From Cupriavidus necator (GTDB lineage Bacteria; Pseudomonadota; Gammaproteobacteria; Burkholderiales; Burkholderiaceae): DNA of 32,000 bases. The stretch covers positions 1,380,001-1,412,000 of the forward strand of contig NZ_CP066019.1 of NCBI RefSeq assembly GCF_016127575.1, written 5' to 3'. Positions 7,821 to 20,189 of this stretch are shown one piece after another. Position 1 is the first letter of the stretch, and every line of letters begins with the position of its first letter. The position numbers and the translations under genes were made by a program. A model generated the notes under the pieces. That model was not told the origin of the DNA and did no database searches. It worked only from the letters and a program-made list of their open reading frames with translations.

Positions 7821-7929
7821 CGGCGGTTTCTCGGTTAAGGCTTCATCGGCCAGTTATGCCTCCCAAATTCGGCCTTACCATATGCGGAATTCCTGTGGCT
7901 CCGCAAAAGGCGTGGCCGAGCAGTCGGCT

Positions 7930-8142: not shown

Positions 8143-8167
8143 GTCCCAATGATTTTTGACGTCGACA

Positions 8168-9130: not shown

Positions 9131-9158
9131 TGCGCGCATAATAAGTGTTATGTCAAAT
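9131..9158 (+). other. dif-like XerC/XerD recombination site (left junction of the element)
   Basis: The site is TGCGCGCATAA-TAAGTG-TTATGTCAAAT, compared with E. coli dif GGTGCGCATAA-TGTATA-TTATGTTAAAT. The XerC arm matches 9/11 and the XerD arm 10/11. It is intergenic. Confidence 0.7.
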
Positions 9159-9241
9159 CCCATCCGTAGCTCTGCAACCCAATACTGGCGCGGCTCTCCG
9201 GGCACCTAAGCACCGATTTCCAAGCGCGTCGACAATTTATC

Positions 9242-9289: not shown

Positions 9290-9634
9290 ATGCCACAACA
9301 ACAATACGCAATCCCCTCCGAATTCGCCCATTGGGCGCGCAGCATCCCTCCCGAATATCTCGCCCGCTATCTGCGGGTCACCCCTGCCACCGCGCGCGCC
9401 TGGCAGTCAGGCAAGCGCCCGGCGCCCTGGTGGACCGTGCACGTGCTTCGGCTCGATAAGCTTGAGCGCGACGAGATGGCCCGCCAGATGGGCTATGCCC
9501 ACCTCCTGCCGAAGCTGGGGATTGTCAGCGGCGACGTGATCCAGCTCCGGCCACGACGCGCGCAGCCGAAACCGGCGCCGGTCGGGCCGGCCAGTGTCAC
9601 GCCGCTGCCGGAACCCGGCCAGATGCAAGCCTAG
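9290..9634 (+). CDS. small phage regulatory protein, DUF3653/XafT-like candidate (114 aa)
   Basis: The internal ATG at 9290 follows the terminator. The segment YLRVTPATARAWQSGKRPAPWWTVHVLRL resembles the DUF3653 phage-protein pattern as I remember it. It lies 130 nt from the dif-like site. Confidence 0.6.
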   Translation: MPQQQYAIPSEFAHWARSIPPEYLARYLRVTPATARAWQSGKRPAPWWTVHVLRLDKLERDEMARQMGYAHLLPKLGIVSGDVIQLRPRRAQPKPAPVGPASVTPLPEPGQMQA

Positions 9635-9993
9635 TCCTTGCCGATGGACGTGTTTTTGTAGAAGTTGTTGGGCAGGCCGGTGAATGACTCCATCGAATAC
9701 TTATCACCATCTGCCGGCCTGTCCTGACTCACGTAGCATCCCGTGAACATCTGCACGCACGGCTGGCCCGATATGTCGCGCTTTTCCTCTGCCTGCTGCG
9801 ATTGCCCCATGGTCATGGACAGCGCCATGTGAGCCGCTGTCCCAGCGCCGGAAACCATATCGCCGTACGGGTTCTTCTTCAGCATTTCCGCGGTGCCCCG
9901 CGCCACCTGTTGCATCTGGTCCTCGGTGCCGACATAGCGAAGCCCACAGCCCGCCAGCGCCAGCATCATCACTCCCGTCAACATCGTTCGCAT
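9631..9993 (-). CDS. lipoprotein, 120 aa (prophage cargo candidate)
   Basis: Lipobox MRTMLTGVMMLALAGC. SD GGGAGGGG is upstream. It lies downstream of the late-operon terminator, so it is a separate transcription unit. Confidence 0.75.
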   Translation of the reverse strand: MRTMLTGVMMLALAGCGLRYVGTEDQMQQVARGTAEMLKKNPYGDMVSGAGTAAHMALSMTMGQSQQAEEKRDISGQPCVQMFTGCYVSQDRPADGDKYSMESFTGLPNNFYKNTSIGKD

Positions 9994-10025
9994 AACCCCT
10001 CCCGTTGTTTTCCGGCAGTGTAACG

Positions 10026-10050
10026 AAAAAAACCCGGCCTAAAGCCGGGC
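10026..10050 (-). terminator. rho-independent terminator ending the long minus-strand operon
   Basis: On the minus strand it reads GCCCGGC-TTTAG-GCCGGG followed by TTTTTTT. Confidence 0.8.
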
Positions 10051-10076
10051 AATCCCCTGTGCAGCGCGATACCTGG

Positions 10077-10148
10077 TTAGCGCTTCTTGCGCTTCCGGAA
10101 CTGGCCGTTGGCCTTGCGCGGCGGCGTACGTCGTTTCTTGGTTGCCAT
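10077..10148 (-). CDS. 23-aa polybasic peptide MATKKRRTPPRKANGQFRKRKKR
   Basis: Found by hand because it is below the ORF-track cutoff. A strong SD (AGGAG) lies 5 nt upstream of the ATG. It is the last ORF before the terminator. Confidence 0.45.
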   Translation of the reverse strand: MATKKRRTPPRKANGQFRKRKKR

Positions 10149-10162
10149 GCTCTCTCCTGTTG

Positions 10163-10339
10163 TCACCACAAAACGCGGCCCTGCTGGTCCTTCAGCGTGA
10201 CCGTCCCTTGATCAGCGATCCACGTCTTGAGCCCCGGAAAGCGCGACAGGATGACGGCGGCGCAGATGACGCCGCCGATCACAATCAGCGTTTCCCGGCC
10301 GATCTCAGCCGGCGTGGGTATCCAGCCGCGGCCGCTCAT
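10163..10339 (-). CDS. 58-aa single-TM protein (holin-like candidate)
   Basis: Hand-translated as MSGRGWIPTPAEIGRETLIVIGGVICAAVILSRFPGLKTWIADQGTVTLKDQQGRVLW. It has an ATGA overlap with the upstream ORF. GC3 is high. Confidence 0.5.
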   Translation of the reverse strand: MSGRGWIPTPAEIGRETLIVIGGVICAAVILSRFPGLKTWIADQGTVTLKDQQGRVLW

Positions 10340-10494
10340 CGGTGCCCCTCGATGTGACGGTCGATGCGTTCATGCGCCCTCCCGATGTCCTTGCGCATGT
10401 TGCGCAGATCGGCACGGATGCCACCGTAGGCGGCCCCGGCCCCCATCAGCACCGTGACCAGGTACTTGAGCGCATCGACCGTCAGCGCGTCCAT
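10336..10494 (-). CDS. 52-aa small protein (N-terminal hydrophobic segment, charged C-terminus)
   Basis: Hand-translated as MDALTVDALKYLVTVLMGAGAAYGGIRADLRNMRKDIGRAHERIDRHIEGHR. There is a TAATG junction with the upstream ORF. Confidence 0.5.
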   Translation of the reverse strand: MDALTVDALKYLVTVLMGAGAAYGGIRADLRNMRKDIGRAHERIDRHIEGHR

Positions 10495-10661
10495 TACTCG
10501 GCCTGGCCCTTTTCCGGCAGGAACACTGCCAGCGCCGACAGCACGGCGGCGACCACCGCGGACACGGCATTGACCTTGGTCGGATTGGCGCCGACGATCA
10601 CCGCCAGACCGGACAGGCCGGCCATGGTGGACGGCTCGCGCAAACGTTGCAGAAATTTCAT
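10494..10661 (-). CDS. 55-aa small membrane protein
   Basis: The internal ATG at 10661 forms an ATGA overlap with the upstream stop. The sequence MKFLQRLREPSTMAGLSGLAVIVGANPTKVNAVSAVVAAVLSALAVF is hydrophobic. Confidence 0.6.
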   Translation of the reverse strand: MKFLQRLREPSTMAGLSGLAVIVGANPTKVNAVSAVVAAVLSALAVFLPEKGQAE

Positions 10662-11077
10662 TGTGCTTTCCTCACTCGCGGGTACACAAAGGCCGCACCG
10701 CCCGCGTTCTCGGTGACAGTCCACGCATTGGCAGGCCGCGCGGCAAACGTGCCGGCGTAGCCGTCCATCGAATAATCCGGCGTGCGGTCGCTGCCCACCA
10801 GCGAACTGATGAACGTGCCAGCCGGGCAGGCAAACGACGCATCCCAGGTGCGGCCCTCGGCAAGCGCGCGTTCGCACTCGGTCATGTCCGTGCGGGGCAC
10901 GCCCAGCACGTCACCGATACCCAGCACCGCCCCGCTGGCCGCATCCCCCACCGCCCCCACCAGGGCGCTCGCTGCACCCGCAGCCACACCCTGAATCCCG
11001 CCGTTTTTTTTTACGACATAGGCGATCGCCGCGATGGCGGCGCCGGCGAGCAACAGCTTGGCGGTCGTGTCTTTCAT
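10658..11077 (-). CDS. 139-aa N-terminally anchored membrane protein (virion membrane protein candidate)
   Basis: The ATG at 11077 is adjacent to the upstream stop (11079-11081). TM segment MKDTTAKLLLAGAAIAAIAYVV. A Gly/Ala-rich linker follows. Confidence 0.65.
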   Translation of the reverse strand: MKDTTAKLLLAGAAIAAIAYVVKKNGGIQGVAAGAASALVGAVGDAASGAVLGIGDVLGVPRTDMTECERALAEGRTWDASFACPAGTFISSLVGSDRTPDYSMDGYAGTFAARPANAWTVTENAGGAAFVYPRVRKAQ

Positions 11078-11078
11078 G

Positions 11079-11537
11079 TCAGCCGCCCGTGGCCCAGCCC
11101 AGGTAGTTGCCCAGGCTCGGGCTCTCCACCTGCGAGCCGAACGTGTAGGCACCGTTCATGCTGCCAAACTGGCCCGGCGTCCAGCCATCCGTGGCGTCAA
11201 TGCCGAGCTGGCCGATGTAGCCGTTCTGCGCGTTGTATTCCAGCGCGTTGGACAGCCCGCCGCCGAACACGCCCGTGACCGGCGCGCCGCTGATCACGGC
11301 ATCCGGCGAGCCCGAACGGAACGCGCCGATGATGCTCGACACCAGCCCCGCGCCTGCGGAGGCGTAGGCAATATTCCGCTGCGCGCTGTAGTCAGGCCGC
11401 AGCTGCGCCGCGGTGCCCATCGGCACGCCTGTGGCCGCCGTCGCGGCGCGCGATCGCAGCGCGAGGAACGCCATCGCGCCCACCGCTGCAATCAGAAGCA
11501 AATCCGGGCCTCCGCCCCCTGCCGCTGCCTTAGCCAT
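11079..11537 (-). CDS. 152-aa membrane protein (virion membrane protein candidate)
   Basis: N-terminal TM segment PDLLLIAAVGAMAFLAL. The protein is Gly/Ala/Ser-rich. It overlaps the upstream gene by 8 nt. Confidence 0.65.
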   Translation of the reverse strand: MAKAAAGGGGPDLLLIAAVGAMAFLALRSRAATAATGVPMGTAAQLRPDYSAQRNIAYASAGAGLVSSIIGAFRSGSPDAVISGAPVTGVFGGGLSNALEYNAQNGYIGQLGIDATDGWTPGQFGSMNGAYTFGSQVESPSLGNYLGWATGG

Positions 11538-12165
11538 TCACTACACCCCCTGCCGCTTGATATGCGGCCTGCAATCGTTCCAGCGCCACTTCCGGCTGGC
11601 CGTACCCGGCGCCGGGCATGGACGCCCAAATCTTGCGCACCTTGCGCACCGCCAGCGCGAAGCGGCCCGCGTCCACGTCACCCAGGGCGCCCGCTTCGCG
11701 GATCAGTTCCAGCGCCGCCGCGTCCTGGCTGGCCGGCGAGAAGTCCGTCAGGCCCAGCCGGGCGGCCAGCGTGTCCCACGTGCGGCGCAGGAACTGGTAG
11801 GCGCCTGCCGCGCTGCTGCTGATCGGCTTGCCGTTCGACAGGGCGGTCACCACCTGGCGCGGATGATCCGCGAAGGAATCGAACTTCCCGCCGCCGAACA
11901 GCATGCGGTATCCGTCATTGCCTGCGGTGCCCTCCCCGGTGCGAATCGTCAGCAGGAAGGCGGCGCGATTCAGTTGTGCTTGCCCCATGTCGGTGTCCTC
12001 AGTGCCGCCGAAGAAGTTGCCTTCGGTGGCGTCGTAAAACAGGTTTTCGGCCTGGTCGATGAAGTCCGGCGACTGCGCGCCCGGCTCTTCGCTGCGCTGC
12101 CAGTCGCGCCACACCACGTAGCCCACGGCGGCCAAGGCCAGCAGCGCGAACTCGTAGCGCGTCAT
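11530..12165 (-). CDS. membrane-anchored lytic transglycosylase, phage lambda R / GH104 type, 211 aa
   Basis: AAGAYQFLRRTWD...LGLTDFSPASQDAAALELIREAGAL...IWASMPGAGYGQPE parallels lambda R (AAGRYQLL..WWD...LGLKDFSPKSQDAVALQQIKERGAL...IWASLPGAGYGQ). There is an extra N-terminal TM segment (FALLALAAVGYVVW). Confidence 0.88.
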   Translation of the reverse strand: MTRYEFALLALAAVGYVVWRDWQRSEEPGAQSPDFIDQAENLFYDATEGNFFGGTEDTDMGQAQLNRAAFLLTIRTGEGTAGNDGYRMLFGGGKFDSFADHPRQVVTALSNGKPISSSAAGAYQFLRRTWDTLAARLGLTDFSPASQDAAALELIREAGALGDVDAGRFALAVRKVRKIWASMPGAGYGQPEVALERLQAAYQAAGGVVNG

Positions 12166-12935
12166 CAGATCGCTTCCTCGAAGAACTCCGCCGTGACTGT
12201 CAGATTGGTGTTATTTGCCGTGCCAAACCACATTACGCCCTGCCCTGGCTCCAGCGTAATTGGCTCCTGAAACACCTTCTGCGCGATCACGTTCGCGGCC
12301 AGATTGGACGTAAATATCGAATTGAGACCCCCCTCCCCGCTTGGGCTTGTAGTCGTGTCTTCGCGGCCCTGCGCGACACTCGCCGCGCCCCACTTCTTTG
12401 GCACAATGCACGCCGCGTTCGCGCTTCCAATCGCGCTGTTCTTCCACGTCATGCCAAAGGCTTGTGCGGTCTGGCTCGATACGTCTGCCGTCTTCACTAC
12501 CAGCCGCTTGCCGCTGCCGACTGGGTTCCACAGTTGCGGCGTCGGCCTGTGCGTCGCGTCACCGATAGTATTGAAGGACGCCAGAAACGCGGCGCCGCCC
12601 AGCGTGCGGGCCTTGCCGCCGTCGATCACATCGACGGTGCCGGCAATGCGCTGGTCGAAGAAGTCCCCCGATCCAATCATCAGGTATCCGGTCAGCGCTA
12701 CGCTTCCCCGGTTGAACACTACCCAGCGCGTTACCTGCTCGCTGAATCGGAAGCCCTGCCCCGGCTTCAGGCTGATATTGCCCTGCGCGAAGTTGGGCCG
12801 AATCTCGATCTGCGCGAACGGGTCTGCCGCCGACAGGAACTGCACGCGGTCCCCGGCCACGTCGATGGCCTGGGCACCACCCGCAGGGATGTTCAGGTCG
12901 TACTGCTGTACGGATTCAATGATGCCCACGGTCAC
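12165..12935 (-). CDS. putative vertex/spike (receptor-binding) protein, 256 aa
   Basis: It is a soluble, beta-rich protein placed between membrane-protein genes and the lysozyme. It has a GTG start in a GTGA overlap (the alternative GTG at 12929 has better SD spacing). The functional call rests on position and composition only. Confidence 0.4.
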   Translation of the reverse strand: MTVGIIESVQQYDLNIPAGGAQAIDVAGDRVQFLSAADPFAQIEIRPNFAQGNISLKPGQGFRFSEQVTRWVVFNRGSVALTGYLMIGSGDFFDQRIAGTVDVIDGGKARTLGGAAFLASFNTIGDATHRPTPQLWNPVGSGKRLVVKTADVSSQTAQAFGMTWKNSAIGSANAACIVPKKWGAASVAQGREDTTTSPSGEGGLNSIFTSNLAANVIAQKVFQEPITLEPGQGVMWFGTANNTNLTVTAEFFEEAI

Positions 12936-13459
12936 CCCTTCATTTTCGATACGGCCACGATGCCCGCGATCGCGAGCGCGCCGGCCACAAGGAATTTCTG
13001 ACCGGTGCCAATCTCCTGCACGTTGTCATAGGCTTTCGCCACGTTCTGTGTGGCCGTTTCGTTCACCGCCCTGGCGGTGCTGGCCGTGTCCTTGGCGAAA
13101 TCGATCAGCTTGCCCATGCCGGCCAGCAGGCCGTCAGCGTTGATCCTGGACTGATCCAGATTCAGCTTGAGGCCGTCTCGCGCCATCCCTACCGCGTCGG
13201 CAGTGGACTTGTAGGTGGTTTCGCTGTTCGTCTTGGCGAAATCGAACGCCGCCGCAATGGAGCCGGCATCGGTGTAGCTGAGGTTGGCCGATACCTGGTT
13301 TCCGTCGCCCGACACCGAGATGCCGCCATCGTTGACGGTGCGGCGATCCACGTTGTTCGTGGTTGCCGCCGTGCTGCTGGCGTTGCTGCTGGACCGGTTG
13401 CAAGGCGTGGCCGGCAGGCCCAGCGCCAGCTGCTTAACTTGCCACGGCTTGAGAATCAT
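12932..13459 (-). CDS. 175-aa protein with C-terminal TM anchor (virion membrane protein candidate)
   Basis: SD GGGGA upstream of the ATG at 13459. The C-terminus is FLVAGALAIAGIVAVSKMKG. Confidence 0.65.
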   Translation of the reverse strand: MILKPWQVKQLALGLPATPCNRSSSNASSTAATTNNVDRRTVNDGGISVSGDGNQVSANLSYTDAGSIAAAFDFAKTNSETTYKSTADAVGMARDGLKLNLDQSRINADGLLAGMGKLIDFAKDTASTARAVNETATQNVAKAYDNVQEIGTGQKFLVAGALAIAGIVAVSKMKG

Positions 13460-13865
13460 GGTTTCCCCGCTTGCGCAGCGTCACGGCCTCTACGCCGTAG
13501 CCGATGCGCTTCAGTTTCTTGATGAGGCCGGGCCGGCACGTCTCGATGCGGATCGCATCGAACGCCGCGCACTGCCGCTCGATCAGCGGCAGCACCCCGG
13601 CCACAATGTCAAAGTCCGCGCCGCCATAGGCCAGCGCAATCTCGGCCTCGGTGCCGTGCGCGTACTGGTGTCCGCGCAGCACATACCAGGCCACCGGCTC
13701 GCCGTCCCGATAGACCCGGCAGAAGGTGCCGCCCGCCACGCACTCAGCCGGCGCCATCAGGCCCCGGCTGGTGTCGCTCTTGGCGTGCGCGCCGAACGCG
13801 CTGTCAACCTCGGCCAGCAGTGCCGGCGTCCAGGCTTCCGGTTCGATCCTGATGACGGTTTCCAT
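13434..13865 (-). CDS. 143-aa soluble protein, possible GNAT-like fold
   Basis: GC3 is high. The junction with the upstream gene is a TGATG overlap. The segment AEIALAYGGADFDIVAGVLPLIERQC...IRIETCRPGLIKKLKRIGY is arranged like the GNAT beta4-alpha3...alpha4 region. The fold call is weak. Confidence 0.6.
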   Translation of the reverse strand: METVIRIEPEAWTPALLAEVDSAFGAHAKSDTSRGLMAPAECVAGGTFCRVYRDGEPVAWYVLRGHQYAHGTEAEIALAYGGADFDIVAGVLPLIERQCAAFDAIRIETCRPGLIKKLKRIGYGVEAVTLRKRGNHDSQAVAS

Positions 13866-14191
13866 CAGCCGCGCCGTGCGAAGGCGATGGCGACCGCCGC
13901 AGCAGCCAGCAGCACCATTGGGTTATTTAACAGCGACAGCGCGTTATCCGCCGTCGCCTGCACAGCGCTGGTCAGCGTCGGCAAGGCGCGCGCCTCACTG
14001 CCTCCGGTGGCTACCGTCCAGCCTGAGCCGTCGAAATGCTGGTCAAACATGCCCCCGCCCGACACTGCCGCCTTATTGCCATCCGGGCCACCCAGCGTAC
14101 TGGTCAGCACCTGCGACGCGCCCATGATGGCGGCGGTGTACGGGTTCGAGTACATGGCGGCAGATGCCGCCCCGCCCATGGCCGGAGTCAT
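13865..14191 (-). CDS. 108-aa protein with C-terminal TM anchor
   Basis: There are 1-nt start/stop overlaps on both sides. The C-terminus is MVLLAAAAVAIAFARRG. Confidence 0.65.
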   Translation of the reverse strand: MTPAMGGAASAAMYSNPYTAAIMGASQVLTSTLGGPDGNKAAVSGGGMFDQHFDGSGWTVATGGSEARALPTLTSAVQATADNALSLLNNPMVLLAAAAVAIAFARRG

Positions 14192-14511
14192 CAGGGCTTC
14201 CCGGCCAGCAGGTAGATGACGGCGCCCGCCACCAGCAGCGGCATCAGGCCACCACCGAACAGCGCAGCCGCCGGCGTGGAGCCGCGCGGCGCCGTGGTCA
14301 GCACCGCACCGCCCGGCGTGATGACCGCCGCCGTGTTGGTGTTCTGCAGCGCCCGCACGGTCTGCACGTCGATCAGACGCGACAGCCCGTACTTGAGCAG
14401 GTCCGCCCCGCTCTGCGCCAGCGGGTTCAGGTCGCTGGCGTCAGGCGCCGCACTCACCATCGGATCGGTGTAGTACGACTGGGGCTGAATGCTGTCGGTC
14501 CAATCACCCAT
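14191..14511 (-). CDS. 106-aa protein with C-terminal TM anchor
   Basis: SD GGGGG upstream. The C-terminus is LMPLLVAGAVIYLLAGKP. Confidence 0.65.
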   Translation of the reverse strand: MGDWTDSIQPQSYYTDPMVSAAPDASDLNPLAQSGADLLKYGLSRLIDVQTVRALQNTNTAAVITPGGAVLTTAPRGSTPAAALFGGGLMPLLVAGAVIYLLAGKP

Positions 14512-14520
14512 GACGCCCCC

Positions 14521-15345
14521 TTACAGGTTGAACGGCAGGTCGATGCACTCGACGTAGACGTCGATGCCGTCCGCAGCGGTCAGGAACGCATTGAACTCCA
14601 GCGCCGCCGCATCGGCGGTCTTGAGGGCGCCCGACTGATTGTTGTCGAAAATGAAGTCCACGCAGTAGTGCTTGGGCTGCGGCACCTTGCGCTGTTCCTG
14701 CTCGATGAAGCGCGCCACGCGGCTGGTCGCGTCCCATACCACCAGGCCGTTTTTCTTGACCTCGACGCGGTTCAGGTTGCCGTCCGTGGTCGACGTCCAG
14801 TCCGTGCCGGTGTAGATCATGTGGATACGCTTCAGGAGCGCACCCTTGGCCGAGAAGTTGATGGGGAACTTGCCCGCCACGCTGGTGGAGGCCGGGAAAT
14901 ACAGCAGCTTGTGGATCAGCTCGCCCGCGCCCTGGCCTTGCGGCGGCGTGAGGAACATGTAGCCGGTCAGCGTCGGCGCGGTGGCGCCCGCGATGGTGAT
15001 TTCCAGATTCATGTTATCCGGCCACGCGGTCAGGTCGAAGCCGCCCACTTCCTTGCCGTCGATGCTCGGCGCGTCGCGCTCGGTAAAGTCGATGGTCAGG
15101 AAGTTGGCATCGTCGTAGATGCCCTTGTACTTGTTGATCAGGTCCAGCGCGGAGCCCTTCACGTTGTACACCGTGCGGGCGCCGATCTTGACCTTGATGT
15201 CGGTGATCATCGCCTTCGTGAGCGCGGTGCCGCCCAGGGCGAGCACAATGCGGGTCAGCGTGTTGGAGTAGCGCGGGATCTGCAGCGTGGCGACGCCGCT
15301 GTTGACCACGTTCAGGAACGGGGGCAGTTGTTGGAGGATTGCCAT
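14521..15345 (-). CDS. major capsid protein candidate, PM2 P2-like (small double jelly-roll), 274 aa
   Basis: The size is close to PM2 P2 (269 aa). Both halves match my recollection of P2. The N-terminus FLNVVNSGVATLQIPRYSNTLTRIVLALGGT...ITDIKVKIGARTVY...LTIDF resembles FLNLNSIPNVAAGNSCSIKLPIGQTYEVIDLRYSGVT...VRVELDGRLL. The C-terminal half VEVKKNG...YCVDFIF...DVYVECIDLP resembles VEFQIDG...YTIDFML...EIIVEYMG. It sits between the ATPase and membrane-protein genes. Confidence 0.6.
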   Translation of the reverse strand: MAILQQLPPFLNVVNSGVATLQIPRYSNTLTRIVLALGGTALTKAMITDIKVKIGARTVYNVKGSALDLINKYKGIYDDANFLTIDFTERDAPSIDGKEVGGFDLTAWPDNMNLEITIAGATAPTLTGYMFLTPPQGQGAGELIHKLLYFPASTSVAGKFPINFSAKGALLKRIHMIYTGTDWTSTTDGNLNRVEVKKNGLVVWDATSRVARFIEQEQRKVPQPKHYCVDFIFDNNQSGALKTADAAALEFNAFLTAADGIDVYVECIDLPFNL

Positions 15346-15360
15346 TTCTCGGTGTCCTTT

Positions 15361-15474
15361 TCAGCCGGCCAGTGCGGTGGCGACGATTTGGTTTGCCACC
15401 GGCACGCGGCGGGCGACGTAGATCACGGCCAGCACCAGCGCCGTGGTCTTGATTGCGTTCTTGATCTCGCTCAT
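15361..15474 (-). CDS. 37-aa single-TM protein
   Basis: The internal ATG at 15474 lies 4 nt after the upstream stop. Sequence: MSEIKNAIKTTALVLAVIYVARRVPVANQIVATALAG. Confidence 0.5.
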   Translation of the reverse strand: MSEIKNAIKTTALVLAVIYVARRVPVANQIVATALAG

Positions 15475-15478
15475 GGCG

Positions 15479-15589
15479 TTAGCCCAGCAGCTTGGCGACG
15501 GAATCGGGCAGGAACTTCTTGCCCTGATTGATGATGACCAGCGCAATGGCGGTCATCGCCACGGCCTTGCCAATGTCCTTCACGCTCAT
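15479..15589 (-). CDS. 36-aa single-TM protein
   Basis: Hand-translated as MSVKDIGKAVAMTAIALVIINQGKKFLPDSVAKLLG. SD GGGAGA upstream. It is below the ORF-track cutoff. Confidence 0.55.
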   Translation of the reverse strand: MSVKDIGKAVAMTAIALVIINQGKKFLPDSVAKLLG

Positions 15590-15688
15590 GGTTTTCTCCC
15601 CGAAAGTGCGTGTCTGCAATGTCGGGGCTAGCCCCCGCTTGAGCCTTCACTATGGGCAACCCAAGCGGGGCAGCGCAAGGGGCGCCCG

Positions 15689-16402
15689 TTACGTTACGTT
15701 GGGCGCGGGTTCGGCCAACGTACGTACGTTACGTACGGGTTTTGGGGTGTTGCTCCCCAGCGACGGCAGCACGCCGGAGACGGTTTTCCCGGTCTGCATG
15801 TCGCGCTCGATGAAGTCAAAGCGGCCCGCGTCCTTGTCGGCCACCATGGCCCGCACCTGGTCCTGCGAGACCGCCAGATACCGACTCATGGTGCGGACGT
15901 CGTTCTCGTCGTTCAGGCGGCTGCAATGGATCATCGTGCAGTTGCCCAGGAACGTCTTGTCGATCAGCGCCGGGCGCTGCGTGACCCCGAAAATGGTCAG
16001 CGCCTCATGCCGGCCCTGGCGCGACAGCACCGACCACGAATCCGGCGTCTCGGCCGGGCTCGGTCCGGTCACGTCCGCCAGCTCTTCCACCACCAGGCAC
16101 AGGTTCCCCGCGGCGAACACCAGCTCGCACAGCGTGTCGAACTTGTCCGGGTAGGTCTTCTTGCGCTTGCCGGGCCGGTAGACGATCCGGAAAGGCCCAT
16201 CGCTGCCAGCCGTGACCACGGCCTCGACCACCTCGCGCAGGTCGGTCATGACCTCGCCCTGGTCGTATTCGCCCAGCGGATCCCAGATCAGCAGGCGCGG
16301 CGGGTTGCCCCGATCCAGTACGCTCTTGAGCCATCGGCTCTTGCCGCTTCCCGACGCCCCTACGACGCCAATGATTCGTGCGGTGTTATGGCTTCCCGCC
16401 AT
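15689..16402 (-). CDS. P-loop ATPase, FtsK/HerA-type genome-packaging ATPase candidate (PM2 P9 / PRD1 P9 class), 237 aa
   Basis: Walker A is IGVVGASGSGKS and Walker B is LCLVVEELADV. It is small, has no terminase nuclease domain, and lies immediately upstream of the capsid module. Confidence 0.7.
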   Translation of the reverse strand: MAGSHNTARIIGVVGASGSGKSRWLKSVLDRGNPPRLLIWDPLGEYDQGEVMTDLREVVEAVVTAGSDGPFRIVYRPGKRKKTYPDKFDTLCELVFAAGNLCLVVEELADVTGPSPAETPDSWSVLSRQGRHEALTIFGVTQRPALIDKTFLGNCTMIHCSRLNDENDVRTMSRYLAVSQDQVRAMVADKDAGRFDFIERDMQTGKTVSGVLPSLGSNTPKPVRNVRTLAEPAPNVT

Positions 16403-16403
16403 G

Positions 16404-16886
16404 TCATCCCCTTACGGCAGGCAAGCGCCCGCCCGTGTCTTCCATGTTCTCGCCCAGGTGCGACCGCGACTGCGGCGGCACCACCTCAGCGGGCGGCGCG
16501 TTGTCCACCGTACGTTCGGCGTCCTGCTGTTCGCGCCATGCCTGGTGCGCCACGTACGTGGACAGCGCCAGCGGCCCCGCCACCAGCAGCAGGCCGATTT
16601 CCGGCCCGGACATGAGCCCGCCCACGTTGAGGCCGTACTTGTCGGCCACCGGCACGATGGCGGCGGCCAGCGCCTTGATGGTGTCCTTCGTGTAGATGCT
16701 GGGCAGGTACGGCAAGGCCGGCGACAGCACCGTGACCAGCAGCGTGAGGGACATTTCCCACTCGACGGCGGGATCAACCGGCTCCGGCTCGCCCGGCAGC
16801 AGCGGCAGGCCCTCGGGCTCGACCGATTCCGCCGCGTGCGCCTTGCGCCGGAGCATGTCCATGGTATTGGCGTCGATCACCCCCAT
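16404..16886 (-). CDS. 160-aa membrane protein
   Basis: Two hydrophobic segments (LTLLVTVLSPALPYL and GPEIGLLLVAGPLALSTYVA). It overlaps the upstream gene by 10 nt. Confidence 0.65.
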   Translation of the reverse strand: MGVIDANTMDMLRRKAHAAESVEPEGLPLLPGEPEPVDPAVEWEMSLTLLVTVLSPALPYLPSIYTKDTIKALAAAIVPVADKYGLNVGGLMSGPEIGLLLVAGPLALSTYVAHQAWREQQDAERTVDNAPPAEVVPPQSRSHLGENMEDTGGRLPAVRG

Positions 16887-17134
16887 ACGGATAGCTCCCC
16901 TTGTTCCAGGGCGCCCGGCCCCGGCGTGGCGGGCATGGTTTCCGTAACGTTACGTACGTACGGGACGCCATCGCCCAGGATGAAGCGTTCGCGGATGCGT
17001 TCGTCGGCCTCGTCAGAGCGCGCGAAGAGCTGGATCCCGCAACCGGGCGCGGTGCAGTTGATGCACACCCGCCCGTTTTTCATGGGAGACCAGCGCGCGC
17101 CCTGGCCGCACACCGGGCAGGTGCATTGGGTCAT
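16877..17134 (-). CDS. zinc-ribbon protein, 85 aa (candidate transcription factor)
   Basis: The Cys pattern is CTCPVCG...(14 aa)...CINCTAPGCG. It is compact, and its position precedes the structural genes. Confidence 0.65.
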   Translation of the reverse strand: MTQCTCPVCGQGARWSPMKNGRVCINCTAPGCGIQLFARSDEADERIRERFILGDGVPYVRNVTETMPATPGPGALEQGELSVWG

Positions 17135-17137
17135 GGC

Positions 17138-17416
17138 TTAGGCCCCCTGCCCTGCCAGCAGCGCGGCGTTGAGGATGCCGGCAACCATGTCGGCGGCGGT
17201 GGTGTTGGCCGGCATGTTGGCCAACGCGGTTACGCCAGCGGCCTGCATGGCCTCGGTGGGCGCGGTCGGCGGCGAGAGCTGGGCGTCAGCCATGCCCAGG
17301 ACCATTTCGGCCTGGTGGTGGGCGGCGCCGTACGCCGTATCGCCAGTGTCGCGCACATGGGGCTTGAGGCTCTCCACGGCGGCCAGCAGCGCCTGCATTT
17401 CGGTCAGGATGGTCAT
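17138..17416 (-). CDS. hypothetical phage protein, 92 aa
   Basis: GC3 is high, and it has tight junctions with its neighbours. Confidence 0.6.
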   Translation of the reverse strand: MTILTEMQALLAAVESLKPHVRDTGDTAYGAAHHQAEMVLGMADAQLSPPTAPTEAMQAAGVTALANMPANTTAADMVAGILNAALLAGQGA

Positions 17417-17547
17417 TGCTTTTGCTCCCTCAGTTCATCCAGCGCCACGGCCATGTCCCGCAGCAGTTCCTTGACGGGGCGCGGCAGCACGCTCCCGAAA
17501 ACCAGCAGCGCCGCATCGGCGCGATCCTTGAAAGACCTCTCTTCCAC
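17413..17547 (-). CDS. hypothetical 44-aa protein (GTG start)
   Basis: Hand-translated as (M)EERSFKDRADAALLVFGSVLPRPVKELLRDMAVALDELREQKQ. SD GAGGGG lies 7 nt upstream. It has an ATGA overlap with the next gene. Confidence 0.4.
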   Translation of the reverse strand: MEERSFKDRADAALLVFGSVLPRPVKELLRDMAVALDELREQKQ

Positions 17548-17616: not shown

Positions 17617-18087
17617 TCAGTCCTTGTGCATCGGGAACGGCCACTCGCTCTCCGCATATCGCGACGCCGGCGACCCCAATTCCGTTACGGGTTTCGTCGT
17701 AACGGAATTGGCGAGCCCGCTGCGCGCGGCTTCGAGCTCGCCACGCAGTGATGCAATCACGGTGCCGGAGTCGATGGCGTTCTGCCGCCAGCGGCGCAGC
17801 GCGATCAGCTCGTCGTTGAGCTCGTCGATGGTTTCGTGCGCTTCGGCCAGCTCGGCCCGCACGGCGGCCAGCTCTTCCGCGAGCTCGTCCGCGTCGCCCT
17901 GGTGCATCAGGTCGGGCACGCCCGGCGCGGCGTACGTGGAAATGCCGTCCGCCTTGAGGCGCGCGCGGTATTTGGCCTGGCGCTCGGCATTGGTCATCGC
18001 GCCGGGCTTGCGCGGTCGCCCAGGCCGGCGCTTCGTTTCGACCTCGGGCAACAGCTCGCCCGTCACGTTGTCGGCGGCATCACGCAT
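17617..18087 (-). CDS. coiled-coil protein with a basic AT-hook-like segment, 156 aa
   Basis: The internal ATG at 18087 overlaps the initiator stop by 8 nt. It has the segment KRRPGRPRKPG followed by heptad-like AEELAAVRAELAEAHETIDELNDELIALRR. Confidence 0.6.
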   Translation of the reverse strand: MRDAADNVTGELLPEVETKRRPGRPRKPGAMTNAERQAKYRARLKADGISTYAAPGVPDLMHQGDADELAEELAAVRAELAEAHETIDELNDELIALRRWRQNAIDSGTVIASLRGELEAARSGLANSVTTKPVTELGSPASRYAESEWPFPMHKD

Positions 18088-19150
18088 GGCGTACCCCTTT
18101 CTGCGCTCTTGGCTTGACCAGGTCAGCGAGCCGGCCGGGCGGCTTGCCCGCGCGGCCCGCCGCGACCTCGGCGGCAAAGGCCGCTTCCCGCGCCGCGGCT
18201 TCGGCGGCGGCAGCCCTTGCGCCCTCGCGCTGGGCCCGGATGCGCTCGGCGTGTTCGGGCAGCCAGTCATCGCCCTGCGCCTTGTCGACCAGGCTGGCGA
18301 GGAACTTGAACGGGGAACGGATGCCTCCGGCCTCGATAGCGCCCCGCCATTCGTCTAAAACCGCTTGGGATAGGTCAGGGCCTATGGGCGACAGTTTTTT
18401 TGCAATGTCGGCCCTTCTGGCCTGCGCGATGCCGATCGGCCAGTGCAACCGATCCTCCCAGGCGAGGCCGCCCCCCTCTTTTGCAAGCCGGCGCGCAGCG
18501 CCCTCCCCCACCGCATCGGCCGGCCCGTGGCGTTCCTCTGAGGGCGCGAAGCCTTCGGGTTCGTGTGGGTGTTGGGGGTCCAGCTCGCCCTCCCGCGCCG
18601 AAGGCGTGGGGGGCTGTTGATACTCCCCCCGGCGGCGAAGCCGTTGGGGGGTAGGGGGGGAAGGGTTTAAGGTGTTACCGGTATCCGGATGTGTGTCGGC
18701 TTTCGCGTTTTCGGGTCTGTCGGCTTCTCTGTCGGCTTCTTCCCTGAAACCCGCGCCGTTATTGCCTTCTGAGGTGTCGGCTTGTCTGTCGGATTGACCT
18801 GTCGGCTTACTGTCGGCTTTTTTTCGGACGTTTTTATCCGTGTCGGCGAGCGGACAGAAAAAAACGAGCTGCTTGTCACGCGACCCGATGCGCACCAGGC
18901 CGTGTTTAACGAGCTGCAGCGCCATGCGGCGGATCGCCTCGATGCTGGGGATGGTGGCCTTCACGCCCGGCCTGGGCTCGATGTAGAGCCATTCCTTGAG
19001 CGCCTGCCAGGAGATACGCGGGGCCAGTCCTACGGCCCCGGTGCGGAAGTCCATGCGCGGACGAATCGCCATCACGTACATGCAGATGGCGGCGTAGTCC
19101 ATGCCGGACAGGGCCGACAATTCGGCCTCATTGAGTTTGAGCGCGGGCAT
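18080..19150 (-). CDS. replication initiator candidate (lambda O-like organisation: N-terminal winged-helix, repeat-encoded linker, C-terminal domain), 356 aa
   Basis: The N-terminal roughly 100 aa look wHTH-like (ISWQALKEWL...IRRMALQLVKHGLVRI). The central low-complexity part is encoded by an iteron array. There is no HUH/RCR motif. Confidence 0.55.
   Translation of the reverse strand: MPALKLNEAELSALSGMDYAAICMYVMAIRPRMDFRTGAVGLAPRISWQALKEWLYIEPRPGVKATIPSIEAIRRMALQLVKHGLVRIGSRDKQLVFFCPLADTDKNVRKKADSKPTGQSDRQADTSEGNNGAGFREEADREADRPENAKADTHPDTGNTLNPSPPTPQRLRRRGEYQQPPTPSAREGELDPQHPHEPEGFAPSEERHGPADAVGEGAARRLAKEGGGLAWEDRLHWPIGIAQARRADIAKKLSPIGPDLSQAVLDEWRGAIEAGGIRSPFKFLASLVDKAQGDDWLPEHAERIRAQREGARAAAAEAAAREAAFAAEVAAGRAGKPPGRLADLVKPRAQKGVRHA
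18694..18849. repeat. iteron array: 8 copies of TGTCGG(C/A)(T/G)(T/A) followed by A/T-rich tracts; candidate ori inside the initiator gene
   Basis: Copies start at 18694, 18718, 18730, 18775, 18787, 18800, 18811 and 18841. The tracts T7 (18818-18824), TTTTTA (18831-18836) and A7 (18858-18864) are adjacent. Confidence 0.65.
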
Positions 19151-19156
19151 TGATGG

Positions 19157-19249
19157 TCACAGCACCCAATGCACAATCGCGAAGACCACCATCACCAGCA
19201 CCATCAGCGCCCAGGCGATCACACCCGCGTCTGCTTTCTCTCGCGCCAT
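19157..19249 (-). CDS. 30-aa single-TM peptide
   Basis: Hand-translated as MAREKADAGVIAWALMVLVMVVFAIVHWVL. The ATG lies 2 nt after the upstream stop. Confidence 0.35.
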   Translation of the reverse strand: MAREKADAGVIAWALMVLVMVVFAIVHWVL

Positions 19250-19250
19250 G

Positions 19251-19571
19251 TCAGCAGCCCTCCGCCTTGTTGATGGCATTGCCGACCAGCACCAGCGCCT
19301 TGCCTACCTTCGGATCATCGGCGTGGCGGGCCAGCGCGACATACGCTGCATTGAGCGCCTCCAGCAGTTCCGGCGCGGTGGCCATCAGGCGCGCATTGGC
19401 TTCTGCCTCCGTTCCAGGACTTGCGCAGTACACCACTCCCACTTCCATCAGGAAGCGGTCGCCCCGCTGGCTCTCGGGATAGATATGGCAAATCGACTCA
19501 GCGCTCTTAACGTTCTGGTGGTTCCACGTTGCGAACCACGGACCCGGCGTATGGGAATTTTGTAACGACAT
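19251..19571 (-). CDS. Ead/Ea22-like early phage protein, 106 aa
   Basis: The motif GPW...EANARLMATAPELLEAL is common in the C-termini of small early phage proteins. SD GAGGGG upstream. Confidence 0.6.
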   Translation of the reverse strand: MSLQNSHTPGPWFATWNHQNVKSAESICHIYPESQRGDRFLMEVGVVYCASPGTEAEANARLMATAPELLEALNAAYVALARHADDPKVGKALVLVGNAINKAEGC

Positions 19572-19695: not shown

Positions 19696-19724
19696 ACTGT
19701 AGTCACCCTGGGATGACACGTCAA
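19696..19724 (-). promoter_or_regulatory. leftward early promoter candidate
   Basis: On the minus strand it reads TTGACG-17 nt-TACAGT. Confidence 0.5.
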
Positions 19725-19775
19725 GCATGGATGACGTCATCCTCCATTGCGCTTGACAGTCATCTCCCGATGACT
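19711..19775. promoter_or_regulatory. three operator-like sites sharing GATGAC/GTCATC half-sites
   Basis: O1 is GGATGACacGTCA (19711-19723). O2 is the perfect 14-bp palindrome GGATGACGTCATCC (19729-19742). O3 is AGTCATCtcccGATGACT (19758-19775). O1 overlaps the leftward promoter and O3 overlaps the rightward promoter. Confidence 0.6.
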
Positions 19776-19780
19776 ATCCT
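19753..19780 (+). promoter_or_regulatory. rightward promoter candidate for the repressor gene
   Basis: It reads TTGACA-16 nt-TATCCT, about 40 nt upstream of ATG 19820. Confidence 0.55.
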
Positions 19781-19819
19781 TCGTCCCGGGTGGAGTGCTT
19801 TTTTAAAGGGGTGAAAGTG

Positions 19820-20146
19820 ATGAAAACTACTCTTGAATACGTCGACGCGGTCAAGATCAGGCTTGACCTGCCGTCTGATTATGCGATTGCCAAGTCCCTC
19901 GGCGTGTCGCGTCAGGCCGTCAGCCAGTACCGCCAGGGCAAGGCTGCTTTTGATGACCTTACCGCCGTGCGCGTGGCGGAAATCCTTGGTCTGAATCCGA
20001 TGGAAGTGATCGCCGCTGCCAACCGTGAGCGGGCGAAAAGCGAGGATGCGCGGCGCGTGTGGACCGGCCTTTTCGACCGTTTCGCCGCAAATTTTGAGAC
20101 GCTCTGCGAGCACCTCCGGATAGCCCAGACCCCGCGTCTGGCCTAG
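19820..20146 (+). CDS. CI/Cro-type HTH repressor, 108 aa
   Basis: The HTH is YAIAKSLGVSRQAVSQYRQGK. SD AAAGGGG lies upstream of ATG 19820. It is divergent from the early operon. Confidence 0.8.
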   Translation: MKTTLEYVDAVKIRLDLPSDYAIAKSLGVSRQAVSQYRQGKAAFDDLTAVRVAEILGLNPMEVIAAANRERAKSEDARRVWTGLFDRFAANFETLCEHLRIAQTPRLA

Positions 20147-20161: not shown

Positions 20162-20189
20162 CCGGATGGGACTAAGTGTTATGTTAAAT
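20162..20189 (+). other. dif-like site with a degenerate XerC-side arm (right junction of the element)
   Basis: The site is CCGGATGGGAC-TAAGTG-TTATGTTAAAT. The XerD arm matches E. coli dif 11/11. The central hexamer is identical to the left site. The XerC-position arm matches only 2/11. Confidence 0.65.

What the first reader, a model, noticed from the sequence alone, without database searches (positions are those of the whole stretch)
10026..17416. Corticovirus (PM2)-like virion module: small DJR-type capsid protein, packaging ATPase, many tiny membrane proteins, no tail genes
The gene order is zinc-ribbon protein, membrane protein, 237-aa Walker A/B ATPase, two ~36-aa TM peptides, a 274-aa capsid-like protein, several C-terminally or N-terminally anchored proteins, a beta-rich 256-aa protein, a TM-anchored GH104 transglycosylase and tiny TM ORFs. 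This mirrors the logic of internal-membrane icosahedral phages (PM2: P9 ATPase, P2 capsid, P1 spike, P3-P10 membrane proteins, muralytic virion protein). Nearly every junction is an ATGA/TGATG-type overlap. The 274-aa protein resembles PM2 P2 in both halves by eye. PM2-like proviruses are known mainly from marine gamma-proteobacteria. One in a GC-rich Burkholderiales-like genome, with a non-RCR replication module and Xer-type integration, could be an undescribed lineage.
Basis: partly seen in the sequence, partly recalled or inferred. Interest (0 to 1): 0.85.

Follow-up and report, generated by a model that had tools for sequence, protein, structure and literature searches.

The report
Known PM2-like prophage of Cupriavidus H16

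Summary
Window 10163-17547 (minus strand) is one tightly packed operon. It encodes a 274-aa capsid protein, a 237-aa packaging ATPase, a phage lambda R-type transglycosylase with an N-terminal anchor, an all-beta 256-aa protein and about a dozen small membrane proteins. No tail genes were found.

- **Capsid protein:** it matches Pfam P2_N and P2_C (E 1e-39 and 5e-42). Its AlphaFold model (pLDDT 91) has PM2 P2 (2vvf) as best PDB match (TM 0.84-0.86).
- **ATPase:** it matches NO16 ATPase and PM2 P9 (2e-27, 4e-20).

The novelty claim fails. The capsid and ATPase sequences are exactly CAJ96109 and CAJ96112 of Cupriavidus necator H16 (= Ralstonia eutropha H16). Krupovic & Bamford (2007) described this "corticoviral element", with its AT-hook protein and lysin. 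Yutin et al. (2022) described the betaproteobacterial lineage as Vinavirales clade D.

What I add is the borders. The element is about 11.06 kb and lies between two direct dif-like sites, at 9132-9158 and 20163-20189. It has no integrase. The attP rebuilt from the two ends matches intact sites on about-11-kb contigs of close relatives, two with terminal repeats indicating circles. This supports XerCD-type integration. In the Cupriavidus relatives attP sits at the tip of a long palindrome whose two halves change together between elements. I could not explain that. Interest is low.

The parts
9132..9158 (+). Left junction (attL). A full dif-like site: GCGCGCATAA | TAAGTG | TTATGTCAAAT (XerC arm, central hexamer, XerD arm).
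   Evidence: It is one of only two XerD-arm matches in the 32 kb window. Similarity to related elements starts immediately to its right.
9290..9634 (+). 114-aa helix-turn-helix protein next to attP. It holds the position that P15/XafT holds in Vibrio dif-type DJR prophages. A role as Xer accessory or regulator is inferred only.
   Evidence: Conserved in relatives. Homologues are 112-115 aa and hit HTH families. There is a homologue in the Ralstonia inovirus p12J. No DUF3653 hit. hhalign to NO16 gp07 and PM2 orf a is weak, E 0.002 and 0.015.
9631..9993 (-). 120-aa predicted lipoprotein (LALAGC lipobox), downstream of the late-operon terminator. Function unknown; possibly lysis or superinfection related.
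   Evidence: Sequence read. 52-61% identical in 4 Cupriavidus elements. No family hit.
10032..10050 (-). Terminator-like hairpin followed by a T run, at the end of the late operon.
10163..11537 (-). Five small membrane proteins: 152, 139, 55, 52 and 58 aa (11079-11537, 10658-11077, 10494-10661, 10336-10494, 10163-10339). By position they are virion membrane or holin-like lysis proteins.
   Evidence: Hydrophobic segments found. Same order and sizes in contigs L033-L036. Function inferred from position only.
11530..12165 (-). 211-aa lytic transglycosylase with a hydrophobic N-terminus (signal-anchor type).
   Evidence: Phage lambda lysozyme 1am7, E 5e-32. phrog_90 endolysin, 1.7e-46.
12165..12935 (-). 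256-aa all-beta, two-domain protein. Probable vertex spike or receptor-binding protein (the P1 position).
   Evidence: AlphaFold pLDDT 90 with two beta domains. BFVD matches include proteins of Vibrio phages 1.249.B and 1.057.O, which I take from memory to be autolykiviruses. PDB matches are inconclusive. It occupies the same position as P1 in PM2 and Jorvik. It varies much more than the capsid protein: 60% against 91% identity to the nearest relative listed.
12932..14511 (-). Four structural-module proteins: 106 aa (C-terminal TM, P3 position), 108 aa (C-terminal TM, P8 position), 143 aa, and 175 aa (C-terminal TM, P10 position).
   Evidence: TM segments. The best, non-significant phmmer hits are collinear: PM2 P3 0.035, Jorvik gp12 0.15, Jorvik P10 0.027. 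Assignment rests on synteny.
14521..15345 (-). Major capsid protein, double jelly-roll, PM2 P2 type.
   Evidence: Pfam P2_N 1.1e-39 and P2_C 5.1e-42. AlphaFold pLDDT 91.2. Foldseek top hit 2vvf_A: E 3e-17, TM 0.84/0.86, rmsd 2.4 A. Sequence identical to CAJ96109.1.
15361..15589 (-). Two small single-TM proteins of 37 and 36 aa (the P7 position).
   Evidence: Genes of 36 and 37 aa are called in the same place in L032-L036.
15590..15688 (-). 99-nt non-coding gap between the ATPase gene and the first small TM gene. It corresponds to the late-promoter region of PM2-like elements.
   Evidence: Gap measured. Krupovic & Bamford 2007 report such a region in all 13 elements they studied. No sigma-70 consensus match here.
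15689..16402 (-). Genome-packaging ATPase (FtsK/HerA type, P9 homologue).
   Evidence: phmmer: NO16 ATPase 1.9e-27, PM2 P9 4.2e-20. tblastn gives 31% identity to PM2. Weak HerA matches. Identical to CAJ96112.1.
16404..17547 (-). Four genes upstream of the ATPase: 44 aa, 92 aa, an 85-aa zinc-ribbon protein (P14-like position) and a 160-aa membrane protein (position of PM2 orf h and the Jorvik 'membrane assembly factor').
   Evidence: Conserved in Cupriavidus elements. Weak top hit of the zinc-ribbon protein to PM2 P14, E 0.05.
17617..19571 (-). H16-specific early/replication module: a 106-aa ORF (19251-19571), a 356-aa putative non-RCR replication protein (18080-19150) and a 156-aa AT-hook protein (17617-18087, motif KRRPGRPRKPG).
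   Evidence: No homologue in the 26 related loci. The 356-aa protein is 37-40% identical to proteins of temperate tailed Ralstonia phages, with a weak STY4528 island replication-family hit. The AT-hook N-terminus matches the Ralstonia inoviruses p12J and RS603, as reported in 2007.
19696..19780 (.). Divergent sigma-70-like promoter pair between the early operon and the repressor gene. A putative lysis/lysogeny switch.
   Evidence: These are consensus matches only.
19790..20146 (+). HTH_3 repressor-like protein, the terminal gene next to attR.
   Evidence: Pfam HTH_3 6e-6. phmmer: PM2 gp c 5.1e-11, NO16 gp06 1.1e-5. Conserved in most related loci.
20163..20189 (+). Right junction (attR): CGGATGGGAC | TAAGTG | TTATGTTAAAT. 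It has the same central hexamer as attL and a good XerD arm, but no XerC-arm consensus.
   Evidence: Similarity to L003-L006 ends exactly here. The attP rebuilt from the two junctions closely matches the intact site of the circular contig L036.

Best explanation
This is the structural, packaging and lysis operon of an integrated, apparently complete PM2-like prophage. PM2-like phages (order Vinavirales) are tailless, icosahedral, carry an internal membrane and have circular dsDNA genomes. This one belongs to the betaproteobacterial clade D. It lies on chromosome 2 of Cupriavidus necator H16 and is the 'corticoviral element' reported in 2007.

**Shown here**
- The capsid protein has the PM2 P2 double jelly-roll fold.
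- The ATPase is a P9 / FtsK-HerA homologue.
- The lysin is a phage lambda R-type transglycosylase.
- Gene order matches PM2, Jorvik and about-11-kb contigs of close relatives, two of which have terminal repeats indicating circles.
- The element is 11.06 kb, has no integrase, and is bounded by two direct dif-like sites.

**Inferred mechanism**
- After de-repression of the divergent promoter region at 19.7 kb, the leftward early genes are expressed. These include the replication module, the zinc-ribbon factor, the membrane-assembly protein and the ATPase.
- The late operon follows. P2 trimers assemble on a vesicle studded with the small membrane proteins.
- The 256-aa protein forms the vertices and binds the receptor.
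- The ATPase pumps the circular genome into the particle.
- The anchored transglycosylase and the small holin-like proteins lyse the cell.
- Integration and excision use the host XerC/XerD recombinases at the chromosome-2 dif site. The attP consists of a XerD arm and a central hexamer.

Whether this copy can still be induced is not known.
For: - **Capsid:** Pfam P2_N and P2_C; AlphaFold model pLDDT 91; Foldseek top hit PM2 P2, followed by PBCV-1, STIV and PRD1 capsid proteins.
- **ATPase:** matches PM2 P9 and NO16 ATPase.
- **Lysin:** matches 1am7.
- **Identity of the locus:** exact proteins CAJ96109 and CAJ96112 of H16 on a 2.91-Mb contig; published coordinates and description of the H16 element.
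- **Lineage:** 425 capsid homologues, named 'major capsid protein P2' in Cupriavidus, Pandoraea, Paraburkholderia, Burkholderia, Rhodocyclus and Roseateles; 26 genome loci, all betaproteobacterial; clade D described in PMC9502842.
- **Completeness:** every ORF is intact and collinear, gene for gene, with contigs L033-L036.
- **Borders:** only two XerD-arm matches in the window, in direct orientation, with the same hexamer TAAGTG. Similarity to sister elements stops at them. Nine related prophages show the same paired sites 10.1-12.5 kb apart. An intact attP lies between the HTH gene and the 114-aa gene on L031, L033 and L036.
- **Location:** the published position is 50.2-50.7% of the way along chromosome 2, where dif is expected.
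Against: - No experiment shows particles, lipid or induction for H16. I found none in the searched literature.
- Assignments of the small membrane proteins, and of P3, P8, P10 and P1, rest on position and non-significant similarities. The spike model has no clear PDB match.
- The replication module differs from the RCR initiator (Phage_GPA) of sister elements and has no characterised homologue, so this copy might not replicate.
- XerCD dependence is inferred from sequence only. The attP lacks a recognisable XerC arm and no DUF3653 (XafT) protein is present.
- GC skew within the 32-kb window shows no sign change at the dif site. The window is too short for this to count either way.
Confidence: 0.93

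Rival explanations
1. It is a cryptic or defective remnant. The genes derive from a PM2-like virus, but the element can no longer excise, replicate or form particles, for example because its original RCR replication module was replaced.
For: The early/replication module 17617-19571 has no counterpart in any of the 26 related loci. Close relatives carry a Phage_GPA initiator instead. No induction data were found. Foreign low-GC DNA directly abuts attR.
Against: All 21 genes from 9290 to 17547 are intact and match the contigs of relatives in order and size. Both att sites are intact, and the rebuilt attP closely matches that of circular contig L036. Module swapping of replication genes is normal in this group (PMC1950889).
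Confidence: 0.25
2. It belongs to a different double jelly-roll phage group (Tectiviridae-like or Autolykiviridae-like) rather than to the PM2-like group.
For: Direct sequence searches did not reach PM2 P2. phmmer against PDB found nothing and tblastn against 50,697 phage records found nothing. The spike model matches proteins of Vibrio phages 1.249.B and 1.057.O, which I take from memory to be autolykiviruses.
Against: The Pfam P2-specific models hit at 1e-39 and 5e-42. The best structural match is PM2 P2 by a clear margin: TM 0.84-0.86, against 0.64-0.74 for PRD1 and STIV. There is no protein-primed DNA polymerase or terminal protein. The genome of relatives is circular and about 11 kb. The order ATPase, P7, P2 is the Vinavirales signature. 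Autolykiviridae are now placed in Vinavirales anyway.
Confidence: 0.03
3. Integration used some route other than XerCD, such as an unrecognised recombinase or homologous recombination, and the dif-like repeats are incidental.
For: The attP has no XerC-arm consensus. No XafT/DUF3653 protein was detected. Some relatives (L003, L011, L015) have a poor XerC arm at both junctions.
Against: No recombinase family was hit by any element ORF. The junction repeats are an exact XerD arm plus hexamer in H16 and in nine other prophages. In seven relatives (L002, L004, L005, L006, L008, L009, L012) the site on the 114-aa-gene side (attL) carries a good XerC arm. XerCD use is already proposed for Jorvik and for Vibrio DJR prophages.
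Confidence: 0.07

Closest known systems
Corticoviral element of Ralstonia eutropha (Cupriavidus necator) H16, chromosome 2, NC_008314 1462494-1476008 (Krupovic & Bamford 2007, PMC1950889)
   Same: It is the same locus. The capsid and ATPase proteins are identical to H16 proteins. The AT-hook protein resembles p12J, the lysin is lambda/SfV-like, and there is no integrase and no recognised replication protein, all as published.
   Different: The published span is 13.5 kb. The att sites found here delimit 11.06 kb. That leaves about 2.5 kb of the published span that must be flank; it most likely comes from 7.8-9.1 kb and 20.2-21.9 kb of the window, which are not conserved next to sister elements. 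The 2007 paper did not identify the integration mechanism for this element.
Vinavirales clade D, proposed 'Neaeraviridae' (Yutin et al. 2022, PMC9502842)
   Same: Prophages mainly of Betaproteobacteria, no cultured member, Vinavirales core genes. The host range of the 26 loci found here fits.
   Different: I did not build the phylogeny, so placement in clade D is by host range and similarity only. The paper describes the betaproteobacterial lysin as 'T4lyz-like', whereas the H16 lysin matches phage lambda R. As far as I can see, the name is not among the families ratified by ICTV in 2025.
Pseudoalteromonas phage PM2 (Corticoviridae, genus Merivirus)
   Same: Same capsid fold (TM 0.84-0.86). 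Homologous ATPase (4e-20). Homologous HTH regulator, PM2 gp c (5e-11). Same order: ATPase, gap, P7, P2, P3 ... spike.
   Different: Capsid identity is only 16-19%. There is no P12 RCR initiator. A lambda R-type lysin replaces P17/P18. This element is temperate and integrated, whereas PM2 is lytic. The host is a soil betaproteobacterium with about 66% GC.
Rhodobacter phage Jorvik (Mestraviridae)
   Same: Nearly identical module order: membrane factor, P9, P7, P2, P3, P8, a ~140-aa protein, P10, P1, transglycosylase, small proteins, holin. No integrase, and a dif-like attP next to an HTH gene.
   Different: Sequence similarity is marginal: ATPase E 0.003, capsid none. The genome is 8.8 kb. The host is an alphaproteobacterium.
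Vibrio 'dif-type' DJR prophages and phage NO16 (Asemoviridae), with the lysogeny module they share with CTX-I inoviruses (PMC12715192, PMC9966536)
   Same: The terminal genes are a repressor and a second HTH protein flanking a dif-like attP. There is no integrase. Lysogeny genes are shared with inoviruses; here the 114-aa protein and the AT-hook protein have homologues in Ralstonia inovirus p12J. NO16 is the closest isolated phage by sequence: ATPase 2e-27, capsid 2e-7.
   Different: The 114-aa protein shows no DUF3653/XafT signature. The attP lacks a XerC arm and, in the Cupriavidus group, lies in a long palindrome.

Membership tests
Vinavirales (PM2-like tailless membrane-containing dsDNA phages) | Double jelly-roll major capsid protein of the P2 type | tested here: met
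   Pfam P2_N 1.1e-39 and P2_C 5.1e-42. AlphaFold model pLDDT 91. Best PDB match 2vvf_A, TM 0.84/0.86.
Vinavirales (PM2-like tailless membrane-containing dsDNA phages) | FtsK/HerA-type packaging ATPase (P9) just upstream of the capsid gene, separated from it by a non-coding gap and a small P7-like membrane gene | tested here: met
   phmmer to PM2 P9 4.2e-20 and NO16 ATPase 1.9e-27. A 99-nt gap followed by 36- and 37-aa TM genes.
Vinavirales (PM2-like tailless membrane-containing dsDNA phages) | Circular dsDNA genome of about 9-12 kb | tested here: met
   11.06 kb between the att sites. Close relatives L033 and L036 are 11.1-11.5-kb contigs with 30-bp terminal repeats, which indicates circles.
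Vinavirales (PM2-like tailless membrane-containing dsDNA phages) | Vertex spike (P1) and a set of small virion membrane proteins (P3-P10) | tested here: inconclusive
   TM segments and collinear positions support it. Sequence similarities are not significant. The spike model is a two-domain beta protein without a clear PDB match.
Vinavirales (PM2-like tailless membrane-containing dsDNA phages) | Virions with an internal lipid membrane and no tail | not testable with these tools
   Needs induction, electron microscopy, and chloroform or lipid analysis.
Corticoviridae in the strict sense (genus Merivirus: PM2, Cr39582) | Close sequence relationship to PM2 across the genome, with a P12 RCR initiator and P17/P18 lysis genes | tested here: not met
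   tblastn of the capsid protein finds no phage record. Identity to PM2 P2 is 16-19%. No P12, P17 or P18 homologue. The family boundaries are ICTV's.
IMEX (integrative mobile element exploiting XerCD) | No self-encoded integrase | tested here: met
   No recombinase family was hit by any ORF between 9132 and 20189.
IMEX (integrative mobile element exploiting XerCD) | Flanked by direct dif-like sites, one of them a complete dif, at the chromosome's dif locus | tested here: met
   Sites at 9132-9158 (complete) and 20163-20189 (XerD arm plus hexamer). The same arrangement is seen in nine related prophages. The published position is at 50% of chromosome 2.
IMEX (integrative mobile element exploiting XerCD) | Integration and excision depend on XerC/XerD | not testable with these tools
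   Needs genetics in xerC and xerD mutants.
TLC-phi-type IMEX with XafT (DUF3653) Xer activation factor | Encodes a DUF3653-domain protein next to attP | tested here: not met
   The 114-aa attP-proximal protein and 12 homologues hit only generic HTH families. The 16 database homologues carry no DUF3653 annotation. Only weak motif-level hhalign matches to NO16 gp07 and PM2 orf a.

The most novel reading that the evidence does not exclude
The Cupriavidus subgroup of these prophages may use a form of Xer exploitation that has not been described. Its attP has only a XerD arm and a central hexamer. The place of the XerC arm is taken by one half of a 20-25-bp palindrome whose halves change together between elements. 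The neighbouring 114-aa HTH protein, which is shared with the Ralstonia inovirus p12J and is not a DUF3653 protein, would act as the Xer activation or recruitment factor. I did not find this arrangement in the papers I read, but I did not check the figures or supplements of the Jorvik and Vibrio papers.
Probability: 0.2. Interest if true: 0.45.

Novelty: already known. Interest (0 to 1): 0.12.

Why it matters
The finding itself adds little. The H16 PM2-like element has been in the literature since 2007, and its lineage has been surveyed several times.

Two practical points remain.
- C. necator H16 is a major industrial strain, used for PHA production and CO2 fixation. It may help strain engineers to know that it carries an apparently intact, roughly 11-kb tailless prophage at the chromosome-2 dif site, with base-pair borders.
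- No member of the betaproteobacterial clade has been cultured, so H16 is a convenient host in which to try induction.

The attP palindrome is a small open question about how Xer recombinases are recruited.

Tried and rejected
- **Direct capsid searches:** phmmer against PDB and tblastn against 50,697 phage genomes found nothing. Only profile and structure methods reach PM2 P2.
- **tRNA and ncRNA:** no tRNA and no Rfam family, so a tRNA-type att site was rejected.
- **First dif pattern:** it was one base too long and found nothing. This was corrected.
- **The repeat finder:** with its default listing it did not show the 17-nt att repeat.
- **XafT test on the 114-aa protein:** Pfam at E up to 10, Pfam on 13 homologues and a database search gave no DUF3653. 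hhalign to NO16 gp07 and PM2 orf a was weak. It was therefore not filed as XafT.
- **Spike:** Foldseek against PDB gave only generic two-domain beta proteins with low TM. BFVD gave uncharacterised phage proteins.
- **RNAalifold on nine attP sequences:** it failed because the stems are in different registers. I replaced it with per-sequence duplex energies against shuffled flanks.
- **PADLOC:** no hit for the flanking island genes, the lipoprotein or the 143-aa ORF.
- **'N-acetyltransferase' label for the 143-aa ORF (as in Jorvik gp12):** rejected, because there is no Pfam hit.
- **GC skew:** uninformative at this scale.

Full report
**1. What is in the sequence**

The region is coded on the minus strand. 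From 17547 down to 10163 there are 20 ORFs in one chain. Of the 19 junctions, 12 overlap (by 1, 4, 8, 10 or 26 nt) and 6 have gaps of 1-15 nt. The only real break is a 99-nt gap between the ATPase gene and the first small membrane-protein gene. A hairpin followed by a T run at 10032-10050 closes the operon. No tail, portal or HK97-type capsid family was hit. 'Nearly every junction overlaps' is only slightly overstated.

**2. What the key proteins are**

- **Capsid protein (274 aa).** It matches the two Pfam families built on the PM2 coat protein, P2_N (1.1e-39) and P2_C (5.1e-42). Plain sequence searches do not reach PM2: phmmer against PDB and tblastn against 50,697 phage genomes both found nothing. 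Identity to PM2 P2 is 16-19%.
- **Capsid structure.** An AlphaFold model built on 41 homologues has mean pLDDT 91.2. Its best PDB match is PM2 P2 (2vvf_A: E 3e-17, TM 0.84/0.86, rmsd 2.4 A). The next matches are the double jelly-roll capsid proteins of PBCV-1, STIV and PRD1.
- **ATPase (237 aa).** It matches the NO16 ATPase (1.9e-27) and PM2 P9 (4.2e-20). It has weak HerA/FtsK-type matches.
- **Lysin (211 aa).** It has a hydrophobic N-terminus and a phage lambda lysozyme (R transglycosylase) domain (1am7, E 5e-32).
- **256-aa protein.** It folds confidently (pLDDT 90) into two beta domains. PDB matches are generic. Predicted viral structures that match include proteins of Vibrio phages 1.249.B and 1.057.O, which I take from memory to be autolykiviruses. 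It sits where the P1 spike sits in PM2 and Jorvik. It is much more variable than the capsid protein. I call it the probable spike, as an inference.
- **Small proteins.** They have predicted transmembrane segments. Their best similarities to PM2 and Jorvik P3, P7, P10 and P14 are collinear but individually non-significant.

**3. Where it comes from and what was already known**

The capsid and ATPase sequences are, residue for residue, CAJ96109.1 and CAJ96112.1 of Cupriavidus necator H16 (formerly Ralstonia eutropha H16), on a 2.91-Mb contig, which is chromosome 2.

- Krupovic & Bamford 2007 (PMC1950889) list a 'corticoviral element' at NC_008314 1462494-1476008. They describe the features seen here: no recognisable replication protein, an AT-hook protein similar to those of Ralstonia phage p12J and plasmid pJTPS1, and an SfV/lambda-like lysin. 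The AT-hook motif KRRPGRPRKPG is in the 17617-18087 ORF, and its N-terminus matches p12J and RS603.
- Yutin et al. 2022 (PMC9502842) define Vinavirales clade D as prophages mainly of Betaproteobacteria with no isolate, and propose the name 'Neaeraviridae'.
- Bardy et al. 2023 (PMC10589892) count 849 P2+P9 prophages in Alpha-, Beta- and Gammaproteobacteria and propose dif/XerCD integration for Jorvik.
- A 2025 paper (PMC12715192) describes 'dif-type' DJR prophages of Vibrio, with a lysogeny module shared with inoviruses.
- NCBI already annotates the homologues as 'major capsid protein P2'.

The suggestion that this is an undescribed lineage is therefore not supported.

**4. The whole element and its borders (my addition)**

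- **Host genes.** They end at 7820 (chromate transporter) and resume at 22020 (acyl-CoA dehydrogenase).
- **The two sites.** The window has exactly two matches to the XerD arm of dif, both on the plus strand and both preceded by the same hexamer TAAGTG. The first, 9132-9158, is a complete dif-like site: GCGCGCATAA-TAAGTG-TTATGTCAAAT. The second, 20163-20189, is CGGATGGGAC-TAAGTG-TTATGTTAAAT and has no XerC-arm consensus.
- **Similarity stops at the sites.** DNA similarity to five Cupriavidus sister elements stops at the right site and starts at the left site.
- **Relatives show the same pattern.** Nine related prophages have paired sites 10.1-12.5 kb apart. The hexamers match at both ends in seven of them.
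- **The rebuilt attP matches real ones.** Joining the two H16 ends gives an attP that closely matches, including the hexamer and both stem halves, the intact site on a circular 11.5-kb contig (L036, 30-bp terminal repeat). It has the same layout as the sites on L031 and on circular L033.
- **Conclusion on integration.** The element is 11.06 kb. No ORF in it hits a recombinase family. The published location is at 50.2-50.7% of chromosome 2, where dif is expected. XerCD-mediated integration is well supported by sequence, but it is not shown experimentally.

**5. Module structure**

- **Conserved parts.** The structural operon, the terminal HTH gene (19790-20146; homologous to PM2 gp c, 5e-11) and a 114-aa HTH protein (9290-9634) are conserved across the Cupriavidus elements.
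- **H16-specific part.** The early/replication block 17617-19571 is found only in H16 among the loci I compared. Close relatives carry a 592-676-aa Phage_GPA rolling-circle initiator instead. The H16 356-aa protein resembles proteins of temperate tailed Ralstonia phages. So 'non-RCR replication' is correct. It reflects the module swapping already stressed in 2007.
- **The 114-aa protein.** It has a homologue in inovirus p12J. It occupies the P15/XafT position of the Vibrio dif-type prophages. It shows no DUF3653 signature and only weak motif-level matches. I do not file it as XafT.
- **Completeness.** Every gene from 9290 to 17547 matches, in order and size, the genes of the about-11-kb contigs L033-L036, so the element looks complete.

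**6. An unexplained detail**

In all nine Cupriavidus-type attP sites, the 34 nt to the left of the hexamer pair with the 34 nt to the right of the XerD arm. Duplex energies are -30 to -43 kcal/mol, z scores are -3.6 to -6.0, and 0-1 of 500 shuffles reach the observed value. The inner stem differs between elements and the two halves change together, for example:
- GGATGGGA / TCCCATCC
- GGAGAGG / CCTCTCC
- CCGAGAGC / GCTCTCGG
- CCCCGTAGCACTC / GAGTGCTACGGGG

More distant relatives do not show this. The left half of the stem lies where a XerC arm would be. No T run follows the hairpin in the sequence, so it is not a standard terminator. I have no tested explanation.

**7. Verdict**

But the object is the known PM2-like prophage of C. 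necator H16, in a lineage that has been surveyed repeatedly.

- Novelty: already known.
- Interest: about 0.12.

The remaining value is the base-pair borders, the Xer-type att sites with their palindrome, and the fact that a widely used laboratory and industrial strain offers a way to culture a clade that has no isolate.

Noticed in passing
window 20140-20189 joined to 9148-9200; also L002-L006, L031, L033, L036: The attP rebuilt from the prophage ends lies at the tip of a long imperfect palindrome, and the two halves change together between elements. It is significant against shuffled flanks in 9 of 9 Cupriavidus-type sites and in none of 4 more distant ones. Its function is unknown.
   Followed up: partly
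window 9078-9119: There are two 18-nt units, GGACATT-N4-CTTAGCC, spaced 24 nt apart, on the host side of attL. The same units lie next to related elements in L004, L005 and L007, and L005 also has an inverted pair 1.3 kb further out. They are absent from the circular contigs. They may be the ends of another small mobile element, or a dif accessory sequence.
   Followed up: partly
window 20190-21950: A low-GC block (0.53-0.55) lies directly outside attR. It holds a DEDDh / RNase AS-like exonuclease gene (20302-20964, phrog_2259 3e-19) and an unknown 164-aa ORF (21004-21498). It is not found next to sister elements and has no PADLOC hit. It may be the remnant of another island at dif.
   Followed up: partly
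window 7830-9131: Between the chromate transporter gene and attL lie a 211-aa ORF (8168-8803, no family hit) and a 70-aa ORF (7930-8142). From memory only, the 70-aa sequence recalls the C-terminus of a RES toxin. This is possibly a decayed toxin-antitoxin pair. It is not conserved next to sister elements.
   Followed up: no
window 17617-19571: The replication module of the H16 element differs from that of its closest relatives, which have a Phage_GPA rolling-circle initiator. It combines a protein related to tailed Ralstonia phages with an AT-hook protein related to Ralstonia inoviruses.
   Followed up: partly
window 9132-9158 and 20163-20189: Both junctions carry the central hexamer TAAGTG, as in the attP of circular contig L036. 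The Cupriavidus sites in L002, L004 and L006 carry TGTATA instead. So the working dif of H16 chromosome 2 now carries the same hexamer as the phage attP.
   Followed up: no
L033, L036 (circular), L034 and L035 (Logan SRA assemblies); L031 (Cupriavidus MAG contig): Contigs of about 11 kb, two with terminal repeats indicating circles, that are close relatives of the H16 element occur in public sequencing runs. This suggests that members of this uncultured clade exist as free or episomal genomes.
   Followed up: partly
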